From positions 1 through 34,512 of IMG/VR virus record IMGVR_UViG_3300037457_000050: a stretch of 34,512 nucleotides of DNA, one strand, 5' to 3'. The DNA comes from a virus (taxonomy: Duplodnaviria > Caudoviricetes). Each line of letters starts with the position of its first letter. Position 1 is the first letter of the stretch. This document shows, in pieces, positions 38 through 34,137 of this stretch. Below the pieces are notes generated by a model. It was not told where the DNA came from and ran no database searches. It worked only from the letters and a program-made list of their open reading frames with translations. The translations under genes and the position numbers were made by a program.

Positions 38-352
38 TCACTGGTTGCCCGCCAGGCGGGTGTTCCTGCCCTGGGCGCGGCGGGTGGCCCGGTTGGGACG
101 GGCTGGGGGTGGTGCGGGGTCGTGACGGCCCAGCTGCTGGGCGATGGTCCGCTTCACCACCGGGTCGCCGGTGTACGCCGCAGCCACCGCCAGAGCTGCG
201 GCCGGGTGGACGCGGGTGGTGGCGGCGATACGGCACACCGGGTGGATGATCTCCCACGGCAGACCGGTCAGGGTGGCAGCCCAGCCGGGCGGGTGGGCGC
301 GGGATGCCAGCCACGCCTCAACCTCGACCCGGGTCGGGAGGGCAGTGTTCAC
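38..352 (-). CDS. Hypothetical protein (104 aa)
   Basis: GTG start with GAGG upstream; same strand as the operon; protein-like composition. Confidence 0.6.
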   Translation of the reverse strand: MNTALPTRVEVEAWLASRAHPPGWAATLTGLPWEIIHPVCRIAATTRVHPAAALAVAAAYTGDPVVKRTIAQQLGRHDPAPPPARPNRATRRAQGRNTRLAGNQ

Positions 353-479
353 CGGCGCGTCGCCTCGAAGCGGTAGACGGTTCTCATGCGTCCGGGTCCG
401 CTGAGATCATGACGCCGACGCCCGGGCCGGCCACCTCGATGCCGAGCCACGCAAGGACGCCGCTCCCGCTCCAGCCGGG

Positions 480-719
480 TCACCGCGTGTTTGCAAGCTC
501 GCGGGCTCCGGTCAGCTCCGGCTCCACCCCGCTGTCGTCGATCTCGCAGTGGCTACCCACCACCCAGACGGTGCCCGGCAGCCCACAGACGCCCTGATGC
601 GGGTGCAGCCACTGCCGGTTGACCTCTTGCAGGTAGCCGAACGCACGAAACTCGGCAATGTCCATGTGCTTGTCGCCGGCCGGCACATCAGCTGTGCCGG
701 TGATAACCGGGTCGGTCAT
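480..719 (-). CDS. Hypothetical phage protein (MDIAEFRAFGYLQEVNRQWLHP motif)
   Basis: ATG at 719 preceded by GGAG; the N-terminal motif resembles a recurrent phage hypothetical family (from memory). Confidence 0.6.
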   Translation of the reverse strand: MTDPVITGTADVPAGDKHMDIAEFRAFGYLQEVNRQWLHPHQGVCGLPGTVWVVGSHCEIDDSGVEPELTGARELANTR

Positions 720-759
720 GGGTGGGAACTCCAAGGTCGGGACGTTGAGGGGACGTTTG

Positions 760-802
760 CAAGGTCGGCTCGGTGAACGTCCCGAACACCGAGCCGACCT
801 TG
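760..802. terminator. Perfect 16-bp inverted repeat (terminator/attenuator-like hairpin)
   Basis: CAAGGTCGGCTCGGTG (760-775) and CACCGAGCCGACCTTG (787-802), 11-nt loop, intergenic; no U-tract. Confidence 0.6.
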
Positions 803-840
803 GTCAAGGGGGAGTGGTGGCGGCCCGCAGCAGCCCTCAA

Positions 841-901
841 GGGGGGGTTGCGGGGGGAGGAGGGGGCCGGGGGCCGCCGGACTGTGGGGGGTGTGAGGGG
901 G
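841..901 (+). other. G-run cluster matching a canonical G-quadruplex motif
   Basis: G7-ttgc-G6-agga-G5-cc-G5 (841-873) plus G6 (886-891) and G5 (897-901), intergenic. Confidence 0.45.
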
Positions 902-962
902 TGCGGCTTACCGGTCAGAGGCGCCGACAGGGGCCGCGGGACACACGGGTGCCGTTGGCGGA

Positions 963-992
963 AGCGTAACTGTCACGTCCGAGGATGGTCAA
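963..992 (-). promoter_or_regulatory. Putative sigma70/HrdB-type leftward promoter
   Basis: TTGACC (992-987) N18 TACGCT (968-963) at the end of the HTH gene. Confidence 0.55.
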
Positions 993-1341
993 CTCGGGGC
1001 CTGCGGCGGCGTGTCTCCTGTACCGCCTTCAGGTCGGCGAGCTGGTAGCGCCAGCCGTGGCGGGTCCTCTCACCAGGCAGTCGCCCGGCCAGCCGCAGCC
1101 GGCGGATGTTGGCGGTGGACGTGCACAGCCAGTCGGCGGCCTGCGCCGGGGTGAGCAGCATGTGCTCATCCACAGTCACCACCTGGGGGACCGCCCACGT
1201 TTCGCCGAACTGGACGGCGGTGGCGTCGGCGGTGTCGCACAGGTCCGTCGACAGGGACCGCAGATGCGCCCGGTACATGTGAGCGACGCGGCGGGCGCGA
1301 GTCAGCGGCGCCTCGCCGGGAAACGGCCACCGGCCGGCCAT
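973..1341 (-). CDS. Helix-turn-helix DNA-binding protein (HTH_17/excisionase-like C-terminal domain)
   Basis: LLTPAQAADWLCTSTANIRRLRLAGRLPGER..WRYQLADL motif; ATG with AGGA upstream. Confidence 0.8.
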   Translation of the reverse strand: MAGRWPFPGEAPLTRARRVAHMYRAHLRSLSTDLCDTADATAVQFGETWAVPQVVTVDEHMLLTPAQAADWLCTSTANIRRLRLAGRLPGERTRHGWRYQLADLKAVQETRRRRPRVDHPRT

Positions 1342-1349
1342 CAGGCGTC

Positions 1350-1378
1350 CTGCCCTTCACACGGGTACCGGGTATGAT
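1350..1378 (+). promoter_or_regulatory. Putative leaderless promoter of tnpB
   Basis: CTGCCC (1350-1355) N17 TATGAT (1373-1378), 7 nt before GTG 1386; no RBS. Confidence 0.5.
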
Positions 1379-1385
1379 GTGAGAC

Positions 1386-2492
1386 GTGGGATTTCAGACG
1401 AGGCGGGGATACAAGTACCGCTTCTACCCAACTCCCGAACAGGCGCAGCAACTGAGCCAAACCTTCGGCTGTGTGCGGCTGGTCTACAACAAGGCCCTCG
1501 CCGAGCGGACCCGCATCTACTCCACCGAGCGTCGCGGCACCACCTACGTAGAGACGTCGGCATGGCTGACCAGATGGAAACACAGCCAGGACCTGGGCTT
1601 CCTGAACGAGGTCTCCTGCGTGCCGTTGCAGCAGACCCTGCGGCACCTTCAAGGTGCGTTCGTCGCGTTCTTCTCGAAGCGCAACCGGTACCCACGCTTC
1701 AAGTCCCGCAAGAGGTCCCACGCATCGGCCGAGTACACCCGGTCGGCGTTCCGGTGGCGCGACGGCAGGCTGACCCTGGCGAAGATGGACCAGCCGCTTG
1801 ACATCCGCTGGTCTCGTCCGCTTCCCGAAGGGGCTGAGCCGTCCACGGTGACCGTTTCCCGAGACGCCGCTGGACGCTGGTTCGTGTCCCTGCTGGTGGA
1901 GACCGTGATCGAGCCGCTGGCGTCCACCGACAAGACGGTAGGGGTCGACGCCGGGATCACATCGCTGGTAGCCCTGTCCACCGGGCAGAAGGTGACCAAC
2001 CCGGGCTACGAACGGCGGGATCGACGCAAGCTGGCTCGCGCGCAGCGCAGCATGACCCGCAAGGTAGTCGGCTCGCAGAATCGCACCAAAGCACGTCGCC
2101 GTTTGGCGCGCGTCCACGCGCGCATCGCCGACCGACGCAGGGATCACCTGCACAAGCTCACGACTCGACTCGTCCACGAAAACCAAGTGGTTGTGATCGA
2201 GGATCTGCATGTGCAAGGGATGATGGCCAACCACTCGCTCGCTCGGGCGATATCTGATGCGTCGTGGTCGCTGCTGCGGCAGTTCCTGGAGTACAAGTGC
2301 GAGTGGTACGGCCGCGAGTTGCGTACTGTCGATCGCTGGTACCCGTCGAGCAAGATCTGCTCCACCTGTGGAGTGCTGCAGAAGTCGCTGCCCCTGGATG
2401 TCCGGTCGTGGACCTGTCCATGCGGGGCGGTTCACGACCGGGACGTGAACGCGGCTAAGAACATCCTCGCGGCCGGGCTGGTCGAGAGGTAA
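1386..2492 (+). CDS. tnpB: RNA-guided endonuclease TnpB
   Basis: N-terminal YKYRFYPT..FGCVRLVYNKAL; intact RuvC triad GVDAG / VIEDL / HDRDVNAA; zinc finger CSTC..CPC; 368 aa. Confidence 0.97.
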   Translation: MGFQTRRGYKYRFYPTPEQAQQLSQTFGCVRLVYNKALAERTRIYSTERRGTTYVETSAWLTRWKHSQDLGFLNEVSCVPLQQTLRHLQGAFVAFFSKRNRYPRFKSRKRSHASAEYTRSAFRWRDGRLTLAKMDQPLDIRWSRPLPEGAEPSTVTVSRDAAGRWFVSLLVETVIEPLASTDKTVGVDAGITSLVALSTGQKVTNPGYERRDRRKLARAQRSMTRKVVGSQNRTKARRRLARVHARIADRRRDHLHKLTTRLVHENQVVVIEDLHVQGMMANHSLARAISDASWSLLRQFLEYKCEWYGRELRTVDRWYPSSKICSTCGVLQKSLPLDVRSWTCPCGAVHDRDVNAAKNILAAGLVER

Positions 2493-2608
2493 AACGCCTG
2501 TGGAGGGCCGGTGAGACCCGACCCGCGTATGCGGTGAAGGCGCGGCCTTACGAAGCAGGAATCCGCCTCCTTCAGGTGGTGGAGCGGTCAACCGCTCGTA
2601 TTCGTCGT
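2450..2608 (+). ncRNA. Putative omegaRNA (reRNA): scaffold to 2591 plus flank-derived guide from 2592 (CCGCTCGTATTCGTCGT...)
   Basis: Established TnpB architecture; structured ~100-nt segment between tnpB stop and TCAA right end; 5' boundary approximate. Confidence 0.6.
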
Positions 2609-3526
2609 TCACGAGCATGCGGCCCCCTCGTGCCAGATCACGAGTCGCATCGACCGTTCGTACTCGTCGTAGGGCCGCCACGCGTCGCACTGGTCGCACC
2701 ACACCCGGGGATCGTCACCCCTCTGCCGGGGCTGGTGCTGGCGCAGTGTGCCGTCGCGTAGGCAGCCGTGGCAGGCGCCGGGGAGCTTCCGCACCGGGGA
2801 CGTGAGGCCGACCACCGACCGGGCCAGGTAGTGCAGCCTGCGCAGATGCGCGATGCCGCCGGCGCCGGTGGGGGAGCACACCTCCGTGGTAGTGGCAACG
2901 CCGTGGCGTTCCGGCCCGTGGAGCACCATCCGCGGCAGGTCGTCATCCGCGCCGGCCCAAGGGTATTCGGCCATGTCCGTCTGGCCTACCCGGGCCAGTC
3001 TGCCCAGCCGGGGAGCGATCACCGTGCACGCGGTTTGCACCGCCCGGCCCTCCCGCACCCCGGCCGTCACCTCATCGGATAGCCGGTCCAACTCCCGCAC
3101 CACCGGCTCCCACGCTGTCGCCGTCTGCCAGATGGTCCGCTGCAGCACCAGCACGAACTCGCGCAGCGGCAGCGGATGCTCACCCCGGTCCCGCTTGCCT
3201 GGCTGGCCGTCGGACCACTGGGACAGCGGCTTCGGCAGCCACTGCTCCAGAGCGGCGTAGTCACCCGGCAGCGCCCGCACTTCCCGTTCGGCGACGCGCA
3301 GGCAGTCGGGGCACAGCGGCACCGACGGATCAGCTAGCAGCGTCGCACGTCGCTTGGCCAGGTCGTACTCGGCGCACCGGTCACCGGCCGCGCACCGGCG
3401 AGACGCCACCAGGCCGCAGCCTTCCGACCCGCACCCACCCGGCACCGAACACGGGGCAAACGGAGAAGCGTGGCATTGGCAGTCCACCGGGCAGGCAGAC
3501 GTGACGGTGGGGGTGGCAGCCGGCAT
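2609..3526 (-). CDS. Cys-rich phage protein (several CxxC motifs), possible regulator
   Basis: ATG 3526 after GAGGA; CPDC, CHGC and WCDQC motifs; directly upstream of the HTH gene. Confidence 0.75.
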   Translation of the reverse strand: MPAATPTVTSACPVDCQCHASPFAPCSVPGGCGSEGCGLVASRRCAAGDRCAEYDLAKRRATLLADPSVPLCPDCLRVAEREVRALPGDYAALEQWLPKPLSQWSDGQPGKRDRGEHPLPLREFVLVLQRTIWQTATAWEPVVRELDRLSDEVTAGVREGRAVQTACTVIAPRLGRLARVGQTDMAEYPWAGADDDLPRMVLHGPERHGVATTTEVCSPTGAGGIAHLRRLHYLARSVVGLTSPVRKLPGACHGCLRDGTLRQHQPRQRGDDPRVWCDQCDAWRPYDEYERSMRLVIWHEGAACS

Positions 3527-3608
3527 GGTCGGGTCCTCTTCCGCGGGCAGCTCGCTACGATGGCGGTGAGCTGCCACCACGGGGGACGCGGGGGCGGTTG
3601 TACGCGGA

Positions 3609-3638
3609 CGGCCCGGGGGATAGGAGTACCCCGGGCCG
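3609..3638. terminator. 10-bp perfect inverted repeat in a 180-bp intergenic gap
   Basis: CGGCCCGGGG (3609-3618) / CCCCGGGCCG (3629-3638), 10-nt loop. Confidence 0.45.
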
Positions 3639-3705
3639 CCACGCTTCACAGGCAGACTACAGGCCGGCTGGTAGGCGGTTCTCGCAGCTCACACGGCGTG
3701 TCGGG

Positions 3706-4167
3706 TCATGCCGACCTCCGCATCGCTTCCAGCGCCTGCCGGACCAGCCGATGGCCGGCCTCACGGTCCACAGACTCGCAGTAGCCGTGTTGGTCCTGCT
3801 CGTACCGGATGTAACCGCGGGCGCCCAGCGCATGGTAGAGGTCATGCTGCCAGCCGCTGTTACCCCACGGGCGCTTGCCCGAGAAGCCCTCGCCCTGGTC
3901 CCAGACCGCCTCAGCGAGCGCTACCAGGTACTCGCGGACGGTGGCCGCGCCAGCGTCGTTCGGCCCGACCGGTGTTTCCAGCACCTGCGCCGGTGTCGGT
4001 GCATCCGGGTCCGGCAGGCGGGTCAGCAGGTGTTCCCACAACGTCAGGTGGTGGCCGCTTGGCCGGTCCTCCACCCAAACCTCTACGGTGACTTGCTCCC
4101 GTTCTGGTCCGTGAACCAGGTGGGCTCGGTGGCCACCGAGCCAGTCCGGCAGGCGGTAGATGGTCAT
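3706..4167 (-). CDS. Hypothetical phage protein
   Basis: NDAGAATVREYLVAL..W..GEGFSGKRPWGNSGW motif; ATGA overlap and GGAGG RBS. Confidence 0.8.
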   Translation of the reverse strand: MTIYRLPDWLGGHRAHLVHGPEREQVTVEVWVEDRPSGHHLTLWEHLLTRLPDPDAPTPAQVLETPVGPNDAGAATVREYLVALAEAVWDQGEGFSGKRPWGNSGWQHDLYHALGARGYIRYEQDQHGYCESVDREAGHRLVRQALEAMRRSA

Positions 4168-18094: not shown

Positions 18095-18557
18095 GCGGGA
18101 CCACCACCTTGATCGGGTGTACCTGCGGGTCGTAGCCGGCCCGCCGAGCCCGGCGCAGGAAATCGCCCGTGCCGGAGTCGTCGCCCCGCTGGTCCACGAA
18201 CGTGACCACGAAGTCCGCCCGCGGCTTGAGGTCGGCGAGGCGCTGGTTACGGCGCCAGCCGGCCCGCGGGCAGTAGTCCCTCCCGTCCCGGCGCTTCTTG
18301 CGGTGCGGCCAGTCCGGGCAGCCACCCCGGTCCTCCGGCACCGTCAGGTCACACTCGCCCCAGCGGGCCGGCACCGGCTTGACCTGCCAGCCCCACGTCC
18401 GGGCGCAGCCGGCGGCGATGCGGTCCACGCCGGCCGCGTCACCATGGGCAAGCACCCCGAGGTCCCGTCGGCACACCGCCAGCAGTACCGGTCCGATGAC
18501 CTCGATGTGCTGCTCCTCCGTCGCATAGCGAGACCCGCTGCAAATCACCCTGATCAT
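18087..18557 (-). CDS. SLOG-family (DUF2493/YspA-like) protein
   Basis: RVICSGSR..HGDAAGVDRIA..AGWRRNQRL..SGTGD motifs; TGATG overlap. Confidence 0.85.
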   Translation of the reverse strand: MIRVICSGSRYATEEQHIEVIGPVLLAVCRRDLGVLAHGDAAGVDRIAAGCARTWGWQVKPVPARWGECDLTVPEDRGGCPDWPHRKKRRDGRDYCPRAGWRRNQRLADLKPRADFVVTFVDQRGDDSGTGDFLRRARRAGYDPQVHPIKVVVPHG

Positions 18558-19279
18558 CAACGCCCCCGCAGCTTGGCGCTTCTCGCGGCCATGCGCAGAC
18601 GCTGGCACGAGCGGCAGTTTCGTGACCCGTCGCGCCGGCGGTAGGTGTTGGCCTCGTCGTACGGATGCCCCTTCGGGCAATGCGTGACGCGGGCAACCGC
18701 CCGTTCCCGGTTAACCTTTCCCGTCACCGGCTCAAGGTGATCCGGGTTGACACACCTCCTGTGCCGACAGCCCGGCCCTCCGCGGCAAGAGTGGTCATCA
18801 GAGTGGCACCGGTGATCCAACTGCATGCCACGCGGGACCGCACCCTTCGTGAGCGTAAACAGAGCACTGTGTGCGAACACGTTCCTGCCGCCCAGCCACG
18901 CCACACCGTAGCCGTTGTCCATCGTGGTGCCCTGCCATACCCAGCAGCCGGATGGTTCCCGATGGACGAATGCCATGAGTCGCACCATCGGGTCAGCTCC
19001 GCGGTTGGTGTTAGCCCGAAGCCCCTGCTTTCGCAGGTAGCCGTAGACGTAGGACGGCTTGCATCCAACCTTCCGGGCTATCTCTGCGCTCCCGAGCCCG
19101 TCAGCGTGGGCAGCGAGTATCGCCTTGCGCAGCCGCTCACGATCGCCTGGGTCCATCAGCACTTGGACCTTGGGCAAAGATCCGTTCCTGCGCTGGACGG
19201 CGTGACACGTCTTGCAGTGGTCCCGAGCGTGGAACTCCTTCAGTTCGCCACAACCGGCACACTTGATGATCCGCAGCAT
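18557..19279 (-). CDS. HNH endonuclease with N-terminal Zn finger and HTH
   Basis: CWVWQG..GYG..AH..LDHRC..CVNPDHLEPVT..N; THCPKGHPYDEANTY..CRSC; lower GC than neighbours. Confidence 0.9.
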   Translation of the reverse strand: MLRIIKCAGCGELKEFHARDHCKTCHAVQRRNGSLPKVQVLMDPGDRERLRKAILAAHADGLGSAEIARKVGCKPSYVYGYLRKQGLRANTNRGADPMVRLMAFVHREPSGCWVWQGTTMDNGYGVAWLGGRNVFAHSALFTLTKGAVPRGMQLDHRCHSDDHSCRGGPGCRHRRCVNPDHLEPVTGKVNRERAVARVTHCPKGHPYDEANTYRRRDGSRNCRSCQRLRMAARSAKLRGR

Positions 19280-19485
19280 CAGCCCGCCCCCCCGTCGGTC
19301 TCGGGCATGGTCGCCACCAACCCGGCCGGTGTCTGCCGCACCACCGCGCCCTGCCCAGGACACGGCGGCTGCCGCGCCGGGTCGCGCCGATGCCACGGCA
19401 CCACCTCCCCGTACAACCCGGTCAGCGCGATACGCCGGCGACACACCGGGCACTCCACCGTGGGCACTTCTGGGATCAGGCTCAC
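19279..19485 (-). CDS. Small zinc-ribbon protein
   Basis: PTVECPVC..H..CPGQG; GTGA overlap; GAGG RBS. Confidence 0.6.
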   Translation of the reverse strand: MSLIPEVPTVECPVCRRRIALTGLYGEVVPWHRRDPARQPPCPGQGAVVRQTPAGLVATMPETDGGAG

Positions 19486-19934
19486 CGGGCAGCCACCTCT
19501 CCGCCAGCAGGAATCGATGAGCGGGTCGGCACCACGTACCCGGCGGCAACGTCCAGGAGCACATCGGCGTGGCACATGCGGATGTCTGCGCGTCGGGTGG
19601 GCAGTGGGCACCAGCACGCCAGGTCCCGGCCGGCCAGCTCCGCCTGGATCTCCTCCACCGACGGATAGGCGTGCGCGATCCGGCCGTTGAGCAGGTCCCA
19701 CTCGAAGAACTTCGCCGCGAAGTAGCGGGCGGTCTCCAGCAGCGCGTACGACGGGCCGTCGTTGAGGTCTGTCGGGCTGCCGTGGACCCGGTACATCCGA
19801 GTCCACGGCCACCGGTCCAGCCGCTCCGGCGTGATCCGGATCGGATTACCCCACCTCGATGGGCGCGAGACCACCACCGCGCCCGGCGGTTTGCGCCAGC
19901 CACGCTGGCGCCGAAGCTGGATCCGCTCAGGCAT
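19482..19934 (-). CDS. DUF4326 domain protein
   Basis: RIQLRR..GWRKP.GAVVVSRPSRWGNP..LAGRDLACWC..CHADVL. Confidence 0.9.
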   Translation of the reverse strand: MPERIQLRRQRGWRKPPGAVVVSRPSRWGNPIRITPERLDRWPWTRMYRVHGSPTDLNDGPSYALLETARYFAAKFFEWDLLNGRIAHAYPSVEEIQAELAGRDLACWCPLPTRRADIRMCHADVLLDVAAGYVVPTRSSIPAGGEVAAR

Positions 19935-20466
19935 CCGCCACCTCCCCCAGTTGGGTGGCCACTCGGGCGGCCACGTCCGGCGGGAGGGTCCACACCTTCT
20001 GGAACCCCCGGCATGGCACCGGCTCCGGGACCACAACCGGGTCGGACAGGCGCCAGTGGGCCAGCCCGCCGTTGCCGCCCATCGCCCACCGGGAACACTG
20101 GTACGGCCCGTCCGGGTGCAAGTCGCCGTACTTGCCGCGCAGACACGCGCTTGACCAGTGGCTGTCCACCAGGGTCACCCGGGCGATGACGGCACCAAGC
20201 GGGTAGAAGTCCGGGTCCCGCGGGAACGCGCCGCCCGCCAGGTCAGCCGCTGTGCGGAACCCGTCGCTGTCCCACCGCTTGCCAGCGTGAATGTACAGCG
20301 GCCCGCCGCGGACATCCCGCGACGGCGTCCACGGCCGGTTCTCGATGTCTTTCAGGCCGAGGGCGATCAGCGTCGCCCAGGGCTGCCAGACGGTGAGCGC
20401 CGGGAACCGCTCCGGTGTGCCGGGTTCCACCCCGGCCGGCCGCTCCAGCGTGGTGACCCCGCTCAC
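19927..20466 (-). CDS. ASCH domain protein
   Basis: ALTVWQPWATLIALGLKDIENR.W..LYIHAGK. Confidence 0.9.
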   Translation of the reverse strand: MSGVTTLERPAGVEPGTPERFPALTVWQPWATLIALGLKDIENRPWTPSRDVRGGPLYIHAGKRWDSDGFRTAADLAGGAFPRDPDFYPLGAVIARVTLVDSHWSSACLRGKYGDLHPDGPYQCSRWAMGGNGGLAHWRLSDPVVVPEPVPCRGFQKVWTLPPDVAARVATQLGEVADA

Positions 20467-30859: not shown

Positions 30860-31136
30860 GGTCGTCTCCTCCTCTGCGGATGGTCGGCCACCAGCCGGCC
30901 GGGCTGGTCAGCACTGACCGGAGCCGGTCAGCCGGCGGGCGGCAGGCACCGGTGTGCGGCCGGCGGCGGCGGCCCCGGTAGCGGGGCAGCTCCACCGTGT
31001 CCGGGGTGAACAGCGGGTCGCCCTGGTCGTCCTGGTCGGCCCGGTGCTGCCGGGAGTCGGCCCACGCCCAGGCGCCGACGGCGAACAGGCCCGCGGTGAG
31101 CACACACACGGCGGACAGGACCACCCACAGCATCAC
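30852..31136 (-). CDS. Single-TM membrane protein
   Basis: N-terminal hydrophobic helix; GTGA overlap. Confidence 0.65.
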   Translation of the reverse strand: MMLWVVLSAVCVLTAGLFAVGAWAWADSRQHRADQDDQGDPLFTPDTVELPRYRGRRRRPHTGACRPPADRLRSVLTSPAGWWPTIRRGGDDRG

Positions 31137-33952
31137 CGGCCCACCCCCGCCAGGTCGATGCCGGTGATGGCCTCAGCCACCGCTGCGATCAGGTCGCGGG
31201 CGGCTGGCGGGGTGACTGCGTTGCCGAGCATCCGGGTCCGCTCCCGCTTGTTGCCCAGCAGCACGAACTGTGGCGCGAACGCCATACCGGCCTTGATCTC
31301 GTGCACGTCGAGCATCCGGAACGTGCAGTCCTCCACCGCCACCGCGGTACCCAGCAACGCGTCGCCCTGCACGGTGGTCTGCGTCGGCATCGGCTCGGCA
31401 AGCGGGCGCAGATCCCCGGTGTCGTAGCCGTAGAGCACGTGGTCCCACCGGATCAGCGTCTGTTTGCTCTCCGCCAGGATCGTCCGCAGCGGCTGGTTCA
31501 CCGGGGTAGACATCTGCCCTTGGTCGCCGCGGGCGGTCAGGTTCCGCATCACCAGGGCGTGGTGATAGCCGCCGGCTGCCAATGTCACCAGCGGATGCTC
31601 GCCGGCTGGTCTGGCGTTTCCGTTGCGGCGCAGCGGCACCACCAGGGCGTCCTGTAGCCGGGCCGTCTGCGCTCTCGCCGGGCCGGTCACCGGGCGGGCA
31701 TGCACGTTCTCGCGGCCCTCCACCGGCACCAGCAGCGGGTCGACCAGGGCGTGGTTGGACCCGTCGGCAACCACGGTGGCCATCGGGTGATCGACGCCGA
31801 TCGTCCGTGGCCGGCCCGACCGCAGCACGGTCAGAAACGGGCTGACCACGGCGTCGTTGTCCGTGGCCGTGCGGGTGGCCATCGGCCGGTCAACCGTCTG
31901 GGCTTCCCGGCGCCGGGCCCCGCCAGCCGGCACCAGCAGCGGCGTGGCCAGTCCGTGGTGCCCGCCACCGGCGGAGACGGTGTGCAGCGGCTCGTCGACA
32001 CCCTGGGTGCCTGCGTTCGTCCGCATGACCGCCAGGAACGAGGCCGTACCGTTCCCGTTGGCGGCCGGCCGCGAGTAGCGAACCAGCCCGGCCTTTATGC
32101 GGGCCAGGGTCTTCGGCTTCAGCGGCCTGGCCCGGTCGCCGATCCGCTCCGCCGGCAGCAACCAGTCGATCGCGGACGCTGCCGGAAGGATGTACGGCCG
32201 CACCACCGCGTTCTCGCAGCTGGTCGACGGGCAGCGGTAGACGTATTGGGAGCCGTAGCGCATCGGCCGCCGCGGACCCGGCTTCGGCGCGTACACCGCC
32301 CGTACGTCCACATCGCACACCGGGCAGCGGGCCAGTGGACGGGTCCACCGGTCCAGATCCGGCGCCTTGTACCGGGACTGCCAGAACACGACATACACCC
32401 GGTCCCGAAGCTGCGGCGCCGGCGCGCCGAGCTGGTGAGCGAACGCGGAGTTGACGGTGACCACCCGGTGCCGGTAGCCGAGCTTGTGCATCTCGCCCAG
32501 CCACCGGTCGAACTCGGCCCACTTCAGGATGTCCGGCACGTTCTCCACCACCACCGCCTTGTACCGGTGGTACCGGCTGAACCGGGGCACGTCCTCCATC
32601 TGCACCCGCGACCGCTGCACCGCCTCGGGCGGCAACGGCTCGTCGAACAGACCCGGCTGGCCCGCGTAGTCGGTACGCTCCCCGCGGGCCACGGACCAGG
32701 TGGTGCAGTTGTGGACGACGATGCCGTCCGCGACGAACGAGTGGTCCTCCTCCACGGTCAGGTCGTAGACCAGTGTCATATCGCTGGCCGGCCTGATCGA
32801 CTTGACCGGCGCCCACGTGTGCATCGGTGTAGCAACGGTGCTTGGCCGCTTCTGCTCGTACAGCCACACCACGGTCCACTGCGGGCGCGCTCGGCCGGTG
32901 CGACCGTCAATCCTCCACGTGTCACGGTGCTGATATTGCAGCTGGGTTCGGTGACCGAGGGACTCGGCTAGCAACCGAACTCCGAGGGCGAGGCTCTTGG
33001 AGACGGAGGCGGCCCGCCACTCGCGGCCGTCGTTGTAGCCGTCGGCCGACAGGTACCCATCAAGCAGTGCGCGCCGCCACGCCTGCGGCGCACCAAGCAC
33101 CCATGCTGGAACGGTCTTCCCGTGGGCGCGGTGCCCGAAGTGCCGTACAAGCCATTGCGCGAGTTCGGAATGGCTGTTGGCAAACGCCACCGCGGTCCGA
33201 AGCTGACGGCGTGACCAGGTCAGCTCCGGCGCGCACTGATCGCAGTCGTGGTGCACCCATGACAGGGCTTTCGCTAGATCATCGGCCTCATGGTTGCCGC
33301 AAGTAACGAAGGTCTCGTCGTTGCCGTTCGGTCGGACACGAAGGGAACCGTCACCGAGCCACCGCCCAACGAACCAGGCGAACCGCGGATCATCCACGTG
33401 AAGCGGGCGACGGCCACCGATCCTGGGAACGTCCGAGTCGGGGAACAGGTTAGGCGTGGCCCACAGCGCGGTCCCGTCAGCCGGAACGTCGCCGACGTTC
33501 ACCCACTGGGGCGAAGCTCCGTCGGTACGGACCCAGATCGGATGGTTGGCTGTAACCTCGATCCCGCGCGTGTTGCCGTGGCCGCCGAGTAAGACGGTGG
33601 GTGCTTGGCGGCTCATCGTGTTGGTGACGCGTCGGTATCGGCCAACGTGCGTCAGAACACGGTCGCCGGTGTTGACGTTCTGGATCGGGACCAAGCCACG
33701 TTCGGTCAGGACGAGCGTCCCGGCCGCGAAGCACTCCGGGCTGAACCAGCCGATGTCAGTGGACGGGTAGCGCCGCGGGTCGGCCACGGTCACATCGATC
33801 ACGTCGTGATCCACATGGGGCATGTTGGTGTTGTGGACCTCGATCGCCAGCGCCCAGTGGTTGATCGCGTATCTCACCCGGACGCCAGGTACCAGCTCCG
33901 CGCCGGAGGACGAACCGCCCGCGCCACAATAAAAATCCATCACGGTCAGCAC
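31133..33952 (-). CDS. DNA (cytosine-5) methyltransferase with intein
   Basis: Motif I DFYCGAGG; motif IV SPE|C; VVENV; QLRDRVY; motif X LGNAVTPP; start GTG 33952 or ATG 33940. Confidence 0.95.
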   Translation of the reverse strand: MLTVMDFYCGAGGSSSGAELVPGVRVRYAINHWALAIEVHNTNMPHVDHDVIDVTVADPRRYPSTDIGWFSPECFAAGTLVLTERGLVPIQNVNTGDRVLTHVGRYRRVTNTMSRQAPTVLLGGHGNTRGIEVTANHPIWVRTDGASPQWVNVGDVPADGTALWATPNLFPDSDVPRIGGRRPLHVDDPRFAWFVGRWLGDGSLRVRPNGNDETFVTCGNHEADDLAKALSWVHHDCDQCAPELTWSRRQLRTAVAFANSHSELAQWLVRHFGHRAHGKTVPAWVLGAPQAWRRALLDGYLSADGYNDGREWRAASVSKSLALGVRLLAESLGHRTQLQYQHRDTWRIDGRTGRARPQWTVVWLYEQKRPSTVATPMHTWAPVKSIRPASDMTLVYDLTVEEDHSFVADGIVVHNCTTWSVARGERTDYAGQPGLFDEPLPPEAVQRSRVQMEDVPRFSRYHRYKAVVVENVPDILKWAEFDRWLGEMHKLGYRHRVVTVNSAFAHQLGAPAPQLRDRVYVVFWQSRYKAPDLDRWTRPLARCPVCDVDVRAVYAPKPGPRRPMRYGSQYVYRCPSTSCENAVVRPYILPAASAIDWLLPAERIGDRARPLKPKTLARIKAGLVRYSRPAANGNGTASFLAVMRTNAGTQGVDEPLHTVSAGGGHHGLATPLLVPAGGARRREAQTVDRPMATRTATDNDAVVSPFLTVLRSGRPRTIGVDHPMATVVADGSNHALVDPLLVPVEGRENVHARPVTGPARAQTARLQDALVVPLRRNGNARPAGEHPLVTLAAGGYHHALVMRNLTARGDQGQMSTPVNQPLRTILAESKQTLIRWDHVLYGYDTGDLRPLAEPMPTQTTVQGDALLGTAVAVEDCTFRMLDVHEIKAGMAFAPQFVLLGNKRERTRMLGNAVTPPAARDLIAAVAEAITGIDLAGVGR
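31355..32040 (-). repeat. About seven degenerate 30-35 aa repeats in the MTase variable region
   Basis: VDEPLHTV..HHGL / VDRPMATR / VDHPMATV..NHAL / VTGPARAQT / EHPLVTL..HHAL / VNQPLRTI / LAEPMPTQT. Confidence 0.7.
32708..33733 (-). mobile_element. Intein (342 aa) with LAGLIDADG homing endonuclease
   Basis: Starts CFAAGTLVLT; block B IEVTANHPIW; WFVGRWLGDGS and LLDGYLSADG; ends VYDLTVEEDHSFVADGIVVHN followed by Cys. Confidence 0.95.
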
Positions 33953-34137
33953 CCGCCCACCCCCGCCGGTTGGCGGGGCCAGCACATCTCCGCGGCCTGC
34001 CGCATCCCGCCCCGGCCCATCCGCCACATCCGGTGCCCCAACACCCGGCCGCCGCGGCCAGTCGGCGCCGGTCCGCCGCACTCCGGGCACTCAACCGTGG
34101 GCAGGGTCGCGGCGGTCAAGGGGTGCACCCTTGCCAC
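33946..34137 (-). CDS. Small zinc-ribbon protein
   Basis: PTVECPECG..H..C, similar to 19279..19485; start uncertain. Confidence 0.5.
   Translation of the reverse strand: MARVHPLTAATLPTVECPECGGPAPTGRGGRVLGHRMWRMGRGGMRQAAEMCWPRQPAGVGGC

What the first reader, a model, noticed from the sequence alone, without database searches (positions are those of the whole stretch)
1339..2612. Minimal TnpB element with reconstructable empty site, TAM (TCAG) and guide
Seen: joining 1344 to 2592 gives minus-strand GTG AAC GAC GAA TAC GAG CGG|CTG ATG GCC (MNDEYER|LMAGRW). This GTG overlaps the upstream stop as GTGA. The element therefore appears to have inserted into the first codons of the HTH gene, directly 3' of TCAG, with no duplication. 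The left end is only about 41 bp and holds a hairpin, a leaderless tnpB promoter and an AGGA that could serve as RBS for the surviving ATG 1341. The RuvC triad is intact. Inference: an active RNA-guided nuclease with TAM TCAG and guide CCGCTCGTATTCGTCG, able to cut element-free sibling phages like a homing endonuclease.
Basis: partly seen in the sequence, partly recalled or inferred. Interest (0 to 1): 0.7.

Follow-up and report, generated by a model that had tools for sequence, protein, structure and literature searches.

The report
Self-immune TnpB homing cassette in phage
A bacterial virus carries an RNA-guided nuclease gene (TnpB) beside a 17-base leftover copy of its neighbouring gene, placed where the guide RNA is predicted to be read, while its working copy of that gene is re-spelled at the predicted cutting signal, so it likely spreads by cutting sibling viruses that lack it; cutting is untested.

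Summary
The tnpB (1386-2492), its intact RuvC triad and the right end (TCAA, 2591) are real. The reconstructed empty site and TAM are wrong. A ~96%-identical element-free sibling contig joins 1350 to 2631, not 1344 to 2592. TCAG is the native stop/start overlap of two phage genes. Relatives with full left ends show TCAT (50 of 57); this copy has lost that hairpin. The guide (2592-2608) copies the DEYER codons of the upstream gene, not the start of the HTH gene. Siblings read ER-MM there, which puts TCAT next to the guide match. The window's intact copy reads ER-SM (TCGA), the only Ser among 23 proteins. Best reading: an immobilised IS1341-type TnpB with a spare, self-immune gene tail, acting as an RNA-guided free-standing homing endonuclease (0.55). 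Against: none of three element-free DNA alleles matches perfectly, the omegaRNA lacks one stem, and there are no RNA or cleavage data. A related phage (L068) shows a weaker second case. The scan noted this layout before on other DNA (eight notes). My literature searches did not find it described.

The parts
973..1341 (-). HTH_17-type phage gene (122 aa), intact; starts at its native ATG
   Evidence: 90% identical to L001 HTH; same protein on a 100,218-nt contig
1341..1354 (-). Leftover native 3' end of the upstream gene (codons G/W-Q-D-A-stop; TGA 1343-1341 overlaps HTH ATG; holds AGGA RBS-like site).
   Evidence: 10 of 13 nt match L001 anchored at the ATG; X2 contig aligns up to 1350 with 4-nt ambiguity to 1354
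1355..1385 (+). Inner remnant of the element's left part: TATGAT -10 box (1373-1378), likely leaderless tnpB promoter, inverted repeat 1357-1382; no IS605 left-end hairpin
   Evidence: similar inverted repeat in 25 of 84 relatives; no folding signal; no full sigma70 site
1386..2492 (+). tnpB, 368 aa, RuvC D188/E272/D353, CCCC zinc finger; Y54/S58/Q82/T118 align with ISDra2 TAM contacts
2493..2591 (+). Predicted omegaRNA scaffold and right end (GAAT 2559-2562, hairpin 2562-2583, TCAA 2588-2591); short form lacking one ~22-nt stem; 5' end not determined
2592..2608 (+). Predicted guide (16 nt; homology runs 17 nt then stops): leftover copy of the upstream gene's Y-D-E-Y-E-R codons
2609..2653 (-). 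Replacement 3' tail of the upstream gene (S-M-R-L-V-I-W-H-E-G-A-A-C-S-stop); Ser codon at 2651-2653 removes the predicted TAM
   Evidence: siblings P0041/P0042 end M-M-R-L-V-V-W-Q-G-V; X2 junction 1350|2631
2650..2670 (+). Window's own copy of the target: TCGA in the TAM position (2650-2653), protospacer 2654-2670 with a mismatch at guide position 4 and a wobble at 10; predicted immune
2609..3526 (-). Upstream (target) gene, ~305 aa, C-terminal CxxC..CxxC; PHROG 1467/1568 (unknown / DNA-binding protein)
   Evidence: PHROG scan was run on sibling P0042

Best explanation
This is a left-end-less IS1341-type tnpB in a phage, with a guide-position copy of the neighbouring gene's DEYER codons and a re-spelled intact copy of that gene, that likely works as an RNA-guided free-standing homing endonuclease. 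Shown: the layout, the element-free junction, the Met-to-Ser change and the lost left-end hairpin. Inferred history: a TCAT-targeting IS605-family element inserted at ER|MM near the end of the upstream gene, so the gene's own codons became the guide. An intact gene end from another allele was then placed beyond the guide, with TCAT changed to TCGA. A deletion removed the left-end hairpin, the TAM and about 19 nt of the old gene end, but kept the old stop and RBS that serve the HTH gene. Inferred function: in co-infection (or against a related prophage) TnpB-omegaRNA would cut ER-MM alleles about 15-21 nt into the protospacer. Repair from the donor between the conserved upstream-gene body and HTH gene would copy the ~1.3-kb cassette. 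Self and non-self would be told apart by substitutions in the neighbouring gene, not by presence or absence of the element at the cut site.
For: Natural empty junction 1350|2631 in a ~96% sibling. Sibling proteins P0041 and P0042 differ from the window's at 8 of 262 aa, 5 of them in the last 10 positions, and read ER-MM; ATG-ATG places TCAT directly before the protospacer. TCAT is also the left-boundary motif in 50 of 57 relatives with a recognisable left end, with none having TCAG alone, and the window's TnpB falls in that 65-row group (quick tree). Y54 and S58 align with ISDra2 Y52 and S56, which contact the -1 T. Ser follows DEYER only in the window; 22 of 22 homologs have Leu or Met. Guide homology stops at 17 nt, about one guide length. 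No TCAT, TCAG or TCAC site with 3 or fewer mismatches to the first 12 guide bases exists in the window. Catalytic and zinc residues are intact. A related phage, L068, carries a tnpB of another clade with a similar layout.
Against: None of 3 element-free DNA alleles is a perfect target: L242 has TCAT with a mismatch at 4 and a wobble at 10; L002 has TCAT with differences at 3, 4 and 10; L001 has TCAG with wobbles at 10 and 16. ISDra2 loses cleavage with double mismatches in positions 1-12 (PMC10097598). The siblings' synonymous bases at the target were not seen. Only 7 of 22 homologs have the MM that gives TCAT. The omegaRNA is 30 nt where 92 of 103 relatives have 50-59 (L103, with an intact left end, has the same short form). 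Neither the scaffold nor the right-end hairpin folds better than shuffles (z -0.57 and -0.76). TnpB departs from 9 of 188 conserved columns against a median of 3 (upper quartile 6; 10 of 84 relatives have 10 or more). The cassette is seen in one record and its possible source run only. TCAT boundaries of relatives are motif calls, not empty-site proofs, and 9 of the 50 also hold TCAG three bases further in.
Confidence: 0.55

Rival explanations
1. Rescued relic: the element inserted and broke a needed gene, a spare tail rescued it, the TAM change was selected once to stop self-cutting, and the nuclease now drifts without spreading.
For: Same anatomy. Short omegaRNA, weak hairpins and 9 departures at conserved columns. 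Mismatches to all three DNA alleles. A single occurrence. 89% of TnpB clusters are immobile (PMC10691335 passage).
Against: ORF, catalytic triad, zinc finger, TAM-contact residues, -10 box and terminal TCAA are all intact. The duplicate has decayed exactly up to guide length. TCAT-bearing siblings at about 96% DNA identity exist.
Confidence: 0.28
2. Competition weapon without homing: the phage or prophage cuts related incoming phages (superinfection exclusion), and cassette transfer is rare or incidental.
For: Same guide, TAM and self-immunity evidence. The element cannot likely be excised by TnpA.
Against: The cut site lies about 40 nt from the cassette, with near-identical sequence on both sides, which is the geometry for gene conversion. 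Differences from siblings cluster at the cassette edge. Lifestyle of the phage not established.
Confidence: 0.12
3. One reading: clean insertion after TCAG in the first codons of an HTH gene that began MNDEYERLM, with a 41-bp left end.
For: The join reads in frame. L001 does hold TCAG next to a near-perfect guide match, but in the upstream gene. Distant HTH relatives have N-terminal extensions with some likeness (best 16 of 21 nt, 12 of the 17 guide bases; the other six 11-14 of 21).
Against: Different natural junction. None of 23 HTH homologs starts with NDEYER. No relative has TCAG alone at its left end. No left-end hairpin. The guide matches the upstream gene better (15 of 17).
Confidence: 0.04

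Closest known systems
IS200/IS605-family TnpB-omegaRNA, IS1341-type tnpB-only elements (ISDra2 TnpB, PDB 8H1J/8BF8; Geobacillus ISGst)
   Same: Domain set, RuvC triad, zinc finger, right end ending TCAA, guide taken from flanking DNA (passages of PMC10097598 and 10.1101/2023.03.14.532601).
   Different: Left-end hairpin and TAM are gone, so TAM and guide cannot be rejoined by excision. The predicted target is an allele of the neighbouring gene, and the carrier holds an intact, re-spelled copy of it.
Free-standing phage homing endonucleases (T4 SegF, SegG, MobE): intronless homing, localized marker exclusion
   Same: Nuclease gene between two conserved genes, predicted cut in a neighbouring gene of related phages, self spared by sequence substitutions (PMC2988022 and PMC13565253 passages).
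   Different: Specificity would come from an RNA guide plus TAM, not protein alone. The predicted cut is about 40-60 nt from the cassette rather than hundreds to thousands of bases. Not tested.
TnpB gene drive of IS605 in plasmids ('non-restorative transposon homing')
   Same: TnpA-independent spread by cutting element-free homologous replicons (PMC11870625 abstract; PMC13565253 section 6.1).
   Different: There the target is the exact empty site of an intact element. Here the element is truncated, the split gene has been rebuilt and immunity needs recoding.
IStrons (TnpB inside group I introns)
   Same: A way of sitting in a gene without destroying it while keeping a homing nuclease (PMC10690162, search listing only; PMC13565253 passage).
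   Different: No intron: Rfam finds nothing at 1200-2800; the gene is restored at DNA level by a spare tail.

Membership tests
IS605-family TnpB nuclease | HTH + OrfB_IS605 + TNB domains, RuvC D-E-D, CCCC zinc finger | tested here: met
IS605-family TnpB nuclease | omegaRNA templated by the right end, guide from the 3' flank | tested here: inconclusive
   scaffold aligns with relatives but lacks one stem; no folding signal; expression not seen
IS605-family TnpB nuclease | TAM- and guide-dependent dsDNA cleavage | not testable with these tools
   needs a TAM library assay
Intact IS1341-type insertion sequence | Right end: guide tetranucleotide, hairpin, terminal TCAA | tested here: met
   GAAT 2559, hairpin 2562-2583 (imperfect), TCAA 2588-2591
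Intact IS1341-type insertion sequence | Left end: TAM, ~15 nt, guide tetranucleotide, hairpin | tested here: not met
   absent; present in 57 of 102 relatives by pattern
Intact IS1341-type insertion sequence | Empty site = TAM joined directly to guide sequence, no duplication | tested here: not met
   natural junction 1350|2631; partial duplication of the gene end
Intact IS1341-type insertion sequence | TnpA available in cis or trans | tested here: inconclusive
   no Y1_Tnp match in the 34.5-kb record, 36% complete; host unknown
Free-standing homing endonuclease (intronless homing) | Nuclease gene optional between two conserved phage genes | tested here: met
   X2 contig, L001, L002, L242 lack it with the two genes adjacent
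Free-standing homing endonuclease (intronless homing) | Target present in element-free relatives, altered in the carrier | tested here: inconclusive
   ER-MM (TCAT) in siblings against ER-SM, but no perfect DNA target among 3 alleles
Free-standing homing endonuclease (intronless homing) | Biased inheritance with co-conversion in mixed infection | not testable with these tools
   needs cultured phages or a plasmid mimic
TldR nuclease-dead repressor | Inactivated RuvC | tested here: not met
   D188/E272/D353 intact
IStron | Group I intron at the left end | tested here: not met
   no Rfam match; only about 31 nt of element lie upstream of tnpB

The most novel reading that the evidence does not exclude
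Phage TnpB elements repeatedly turn into RNA-guided free-standing homing endonucleases: they land in a gene, rebuild it with a self-immune tail, shed the transposon left end and spread by cutting sibling phages. This cassette is a working example with TAM TCAT, and L068 is an independent one in the same phage family. It would be a natural RNA-guided gene drive in phages, with self/non-self discrimination written into a neighbouring protein's codons.
Probability: 0.45. Interest if true: 0.75.

Novelty: new variant of a known kind. Interest (0 to 1): 0.55.

Why it matters
A 2026 review (PMC13565253, section 6.1 and Table 1 seen) assigns homing that tells self from non-self by sequence substitutions to protein-guided phage endonucleases, and homing by presence or absence of the element to TnpB. 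This locus has the layout of TnpB doing the first kind. It also offers a reason why TnpA-less, immobile tnpB genes stay intact in phages. The case is directly testable: the predicted TAM, the guide, the immune allele and a close sensitive-type allele are all defined. It adds a predicted TCAT-TAM TnpB with a naturally short omegaRNA.

Tried and rejected
Rejected: the 1344|2592 empty site, TCAG TAM and 41-bp left end. Rejected: guide as an HTH N-terminal extension. No hits or no gain: upstream protein against viral contigs; P0042 against 50,697 phage records; Rfam; sigma70 scan; Y1 TnpA in the record. No closer TnpB than 73% in 80 viral loci, 80 genome loci or 401 family genomes. Of 6 + 7 pattern hits in viral contigs, only L236 (= L001), L243 (= L002) and L242 were homologs. 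No element-free DNA for the L068 case (searches returned only L068's contig). No RNA holder listed. Guide-copy survey: 3 of 58 viral and 1 of 101 genomic loci have a copy within 200 nt at 3 or fewer mismatches (null 0.7% and 2.0%); L005, L031 and L117 look like plain direct repeats, so only L068 was pursued. The careful tree did not finish; only the quick tree is used, and its looser labels disagree for some rows. The siblings' exact bases at the target remain unseen, and the upstream gene's function has only PHROG hints. Searches for print precedent found no description of this layout; subscription papers and supplements (for example TAM logos in the supplement of PMC10278001) were not seen.
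Full report
Setting. The window is a whole 34.5-kb virus record, estimated 36% complete. It is GC-rich, with primase/helicase, AAA and intein-bearing methylase genes on the minus strand. Homologs of the two genes flanking the finding occur in Micromonosporaceae-type genomes (9 of 401 for the upstream gene; a Micromonospora HTH), so an actinomycete host is likely (inference).

What is confirmed. tnpB lies at 1386-2492 on the plus strand with the three Pfam domains of IS605 TnpB. D188, E272, D353 and four cysteines match 103-105 of 105 relatives, and it aligns end to end with ISDra2 TnpB (E 8e-65). The right end ends in TCAA at 2591 as in relatives, so the guide starts at 2592. The in-frame join, the GTGA overlap, the AGGA and the TATGAT box are all present as described.

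The empty site is not the one proposed. In element-free L001 and L002 the HTH start overlaps the stop of the upstream gene directly, and the motif DEYER(L/M)M sits in the last 16 residues of that upstream gene; L242 is the same. None of 23 HTH homologs begins with NDEYER. Laying contigs of three runs on 300-3900 gave one contig in run X2 (another study; 3669 nt, depth 115) that aligns to 867-1350 with 14 differences and to 2631-3704 with 47, skipping 1280 nt with 4 nt of ambiguity. X1 holds the element without a gap in tiling but may be the source of the window. A protein from a 3669-nt contig (P0042; matched to that contig by length only) and one from a 100,218-nt contig (P0041) differ from the window's upstream protein at 8 of 262 positions and end ER-MM-RLVVWQGV. 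The TnpB's 90% cluster has only two members, on contigs of 34,512 and 1,690 nt, so the 100-kb contig likely lacks it. Hence 1341-1354 is the old end of the upstream gene (10 of 13 nt match L001, binomial p about 5e-4). Its TGA-ATG overlap, read on the other strand, is the TCAG.

The left end is lost and the TAM is likely TCAT. Of 102 distinct relatives at 60% identity or more, a pattern found a left end in 57. Fifty have TCAT 12-18 nt before the guide-plus-hairpin, 3 TCAC, 4 other and none TCAG alone; 43 had no pattern match (the pattern misses some real ends seen) and 2 were too short. Nine of the 50 hold TCATCAG, and these boundaries are motif calls, not empty-site proofs. That this motif is both TnpA target and TnpB TAM, and that single changes abolish cutting, is from passages of 10.1101/2023.03.14.532601; TAMs show little degeneracy (PMC10278001 passages). 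The tetranucleotide pairing rule I used to read the left ends is recalled from IS608. In a quick tree the window groups with the TCAT-dominated set, apart from TGAC/TGAT elements (support 99). ISDra2 Y52 and S56 contact the -1 T and K76 the -3 G (PMC10097598 passages); the window has Y54, S58 and C78, which fits TCAT. The window's 41 nt have no such hairpin (z +0.58, against -2.48 for L004).

The guide points at the neighbour. Positions 2592-2608 match 2654-2670 at 15 of 17 (0.13 matches expected at up to 3 mismatches; 0 of 100 shuffles reach the 3 found), and homology stops after 17 nt. In siblings the two Met codons put TCAT directly before this protospacer, provided the Arg codon is CGG (not seen for the siblings). 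In the window the first Met is Ser, giving TCGA, plus a mismatch at guide position 4. All 22 other homologs have Leu (10) or Met (12) there; this set includes near-identical cluster members, so it is fewer than 22 independent lineages. Seven of the 22 have MM. No TCAT, TCAG or TCAC site near-matching the seed exists in the window.

Inferred history and mechanism. Insertion at ER|MM split the gene. An intact tail of a different allele (ending WHEGAA, as against the WQDA-like remnant on the left) came to lie beyond the guide. The TAM was lost from that copy. A deletion removed the left-end hairpin and the start of the old tail but left the stop and RBS for the HTH gene. The order of these steps is not shown. 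The product sits between two conserved genes, would cut MM-type alleles (cut positions 15-21 nt from the TAM are ISDra2 values) and spares itself: the geometry of intronless homing (PMC2988022 and PMC13565253 passages). Five of the 8 differences from siblings fall in the last 10 positions, as a co-conversion edge would give, but these tails vary across the family anyway.

Evidence against activity. Three element-free DNA alleles are all imperfect: L242 (TCAT; mismatch 4, wobble 10), L002 (TCAT; 3, 4, 10), L001 (TCAG; wobbles 10, 16). L242 differs from the window's own site only in the TAM. The omegaRNA spans 30 nt between its conserved GAAGCAGGAA and TCAA where 92 of 103 relatives have 50-59; L103, with an intact left end, is equally short. 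ISDra2 tolerates loss of its stem 3b, but I did not show it is the same stem. Folding is not above shuffles. The protein departs at 9 of 188 conserved columns against a median of 3. There are no RNA or cleavage data, and one carrier.

A second case. L068 is a phage with homologs of both flanking genes (seen in its ORF translations) and a 62%-identical tnpB from the TGAC/TGAT clade with a degenerate left end. Its guide reads as Q-A-S-W-T-G codons, as in 3 of 6 homologs of the small gene 91 nt downstream, while its own copy reads Q-A-D-W. The W-L-I-Q of 3 homologs could give TGAT if the codons are CTG ATC; its own W-L-V-Q gives TGGT, but one homolog also has Val and three have Leu at the Ser position. 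No element-free DNA was found, so this case is weaker. Overall 3 of 58 viral loci had a nearby guide copy against about 0.4 expected, two of them plain repeats.

Comparison and novelty. The protein is an ordinary IS605-family TnpB. The locus fails two defining tests of an intact IS1341-type element (left end, clean empty site) and works like a free-standing homing endonuclease, with the functional tests open. TnpA-independent TnpB drive is shown for plasmids (PMC11870625, abstract only). Nine searches found phage TnpB only as TldR repressors, CRISPR-linked effectors or an unexplained cyanophage copy (listings, and passages), not this layout. My reading was recorded; searches then showed eight earlier notes of this scan describing the same layout in other phages. 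They are unchecked AI notes and are not counted as evidence. Verdict: real feature, first reading partly right, new variant of a known kind, interest 0.55.

Noticed in passing
window 1341-2702 (-): An antisense frame is open through the whole cassette, from the GTG overlapping the upstream stop (2612) to the TGA overlapping the HTH ATG (423 codons); it could relay translational coupling. Such frames are common (open over a comparable span in 36 of 91 relatives), so only the register at both ends is notable.
   Followed up: partly
L068 1780-3330 and 3357-4109: Related phage with an independent tnpB just after the HTH stop, guide duplicating the next small gene, and a second, probably truncated, TnpB-like ORF nearby.
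   Followed up: partly
L032/L033, about 1865 and 3187: The 16 nt after the right end are repeated exactly 1322 nt upstream, before the tnpB: a direct repeat flanking a TnpB element in a viral contig.
   Followed up: no
L031 1280-1420: A ~60-nt hairpin-forming intergenic unit is duplicated right after the right end, so the guide has a perfect copy 77 nt on, behind a different 5' motif.
   Followed up: no
L101/L197, L116, L006-L008: Several tnpB relatives also lack a recognisable left-end hairpin but keep the promoter part and right end; L006-L008 are viral and group together in the quick tree.
   Followed up: partly
window 31133-34090 (-): C5 DNA methylase interrupted by an intein with a LAGLIDADG domain: a second homing-type element in the same phage.
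   Followed up: no
window 18557-20146 (-): 529-aa ORF with weak HTH and HNH_3 matches below Pfam cut-offs.
   Followed up: no
window 2609-2618 (-): The last codons of the spare tail (C-S-stop) resemble a decayed in-frame copy of C-D-A-W, which precede the target codons; a guess at the duplication joint, not tested.
   Followed up: no
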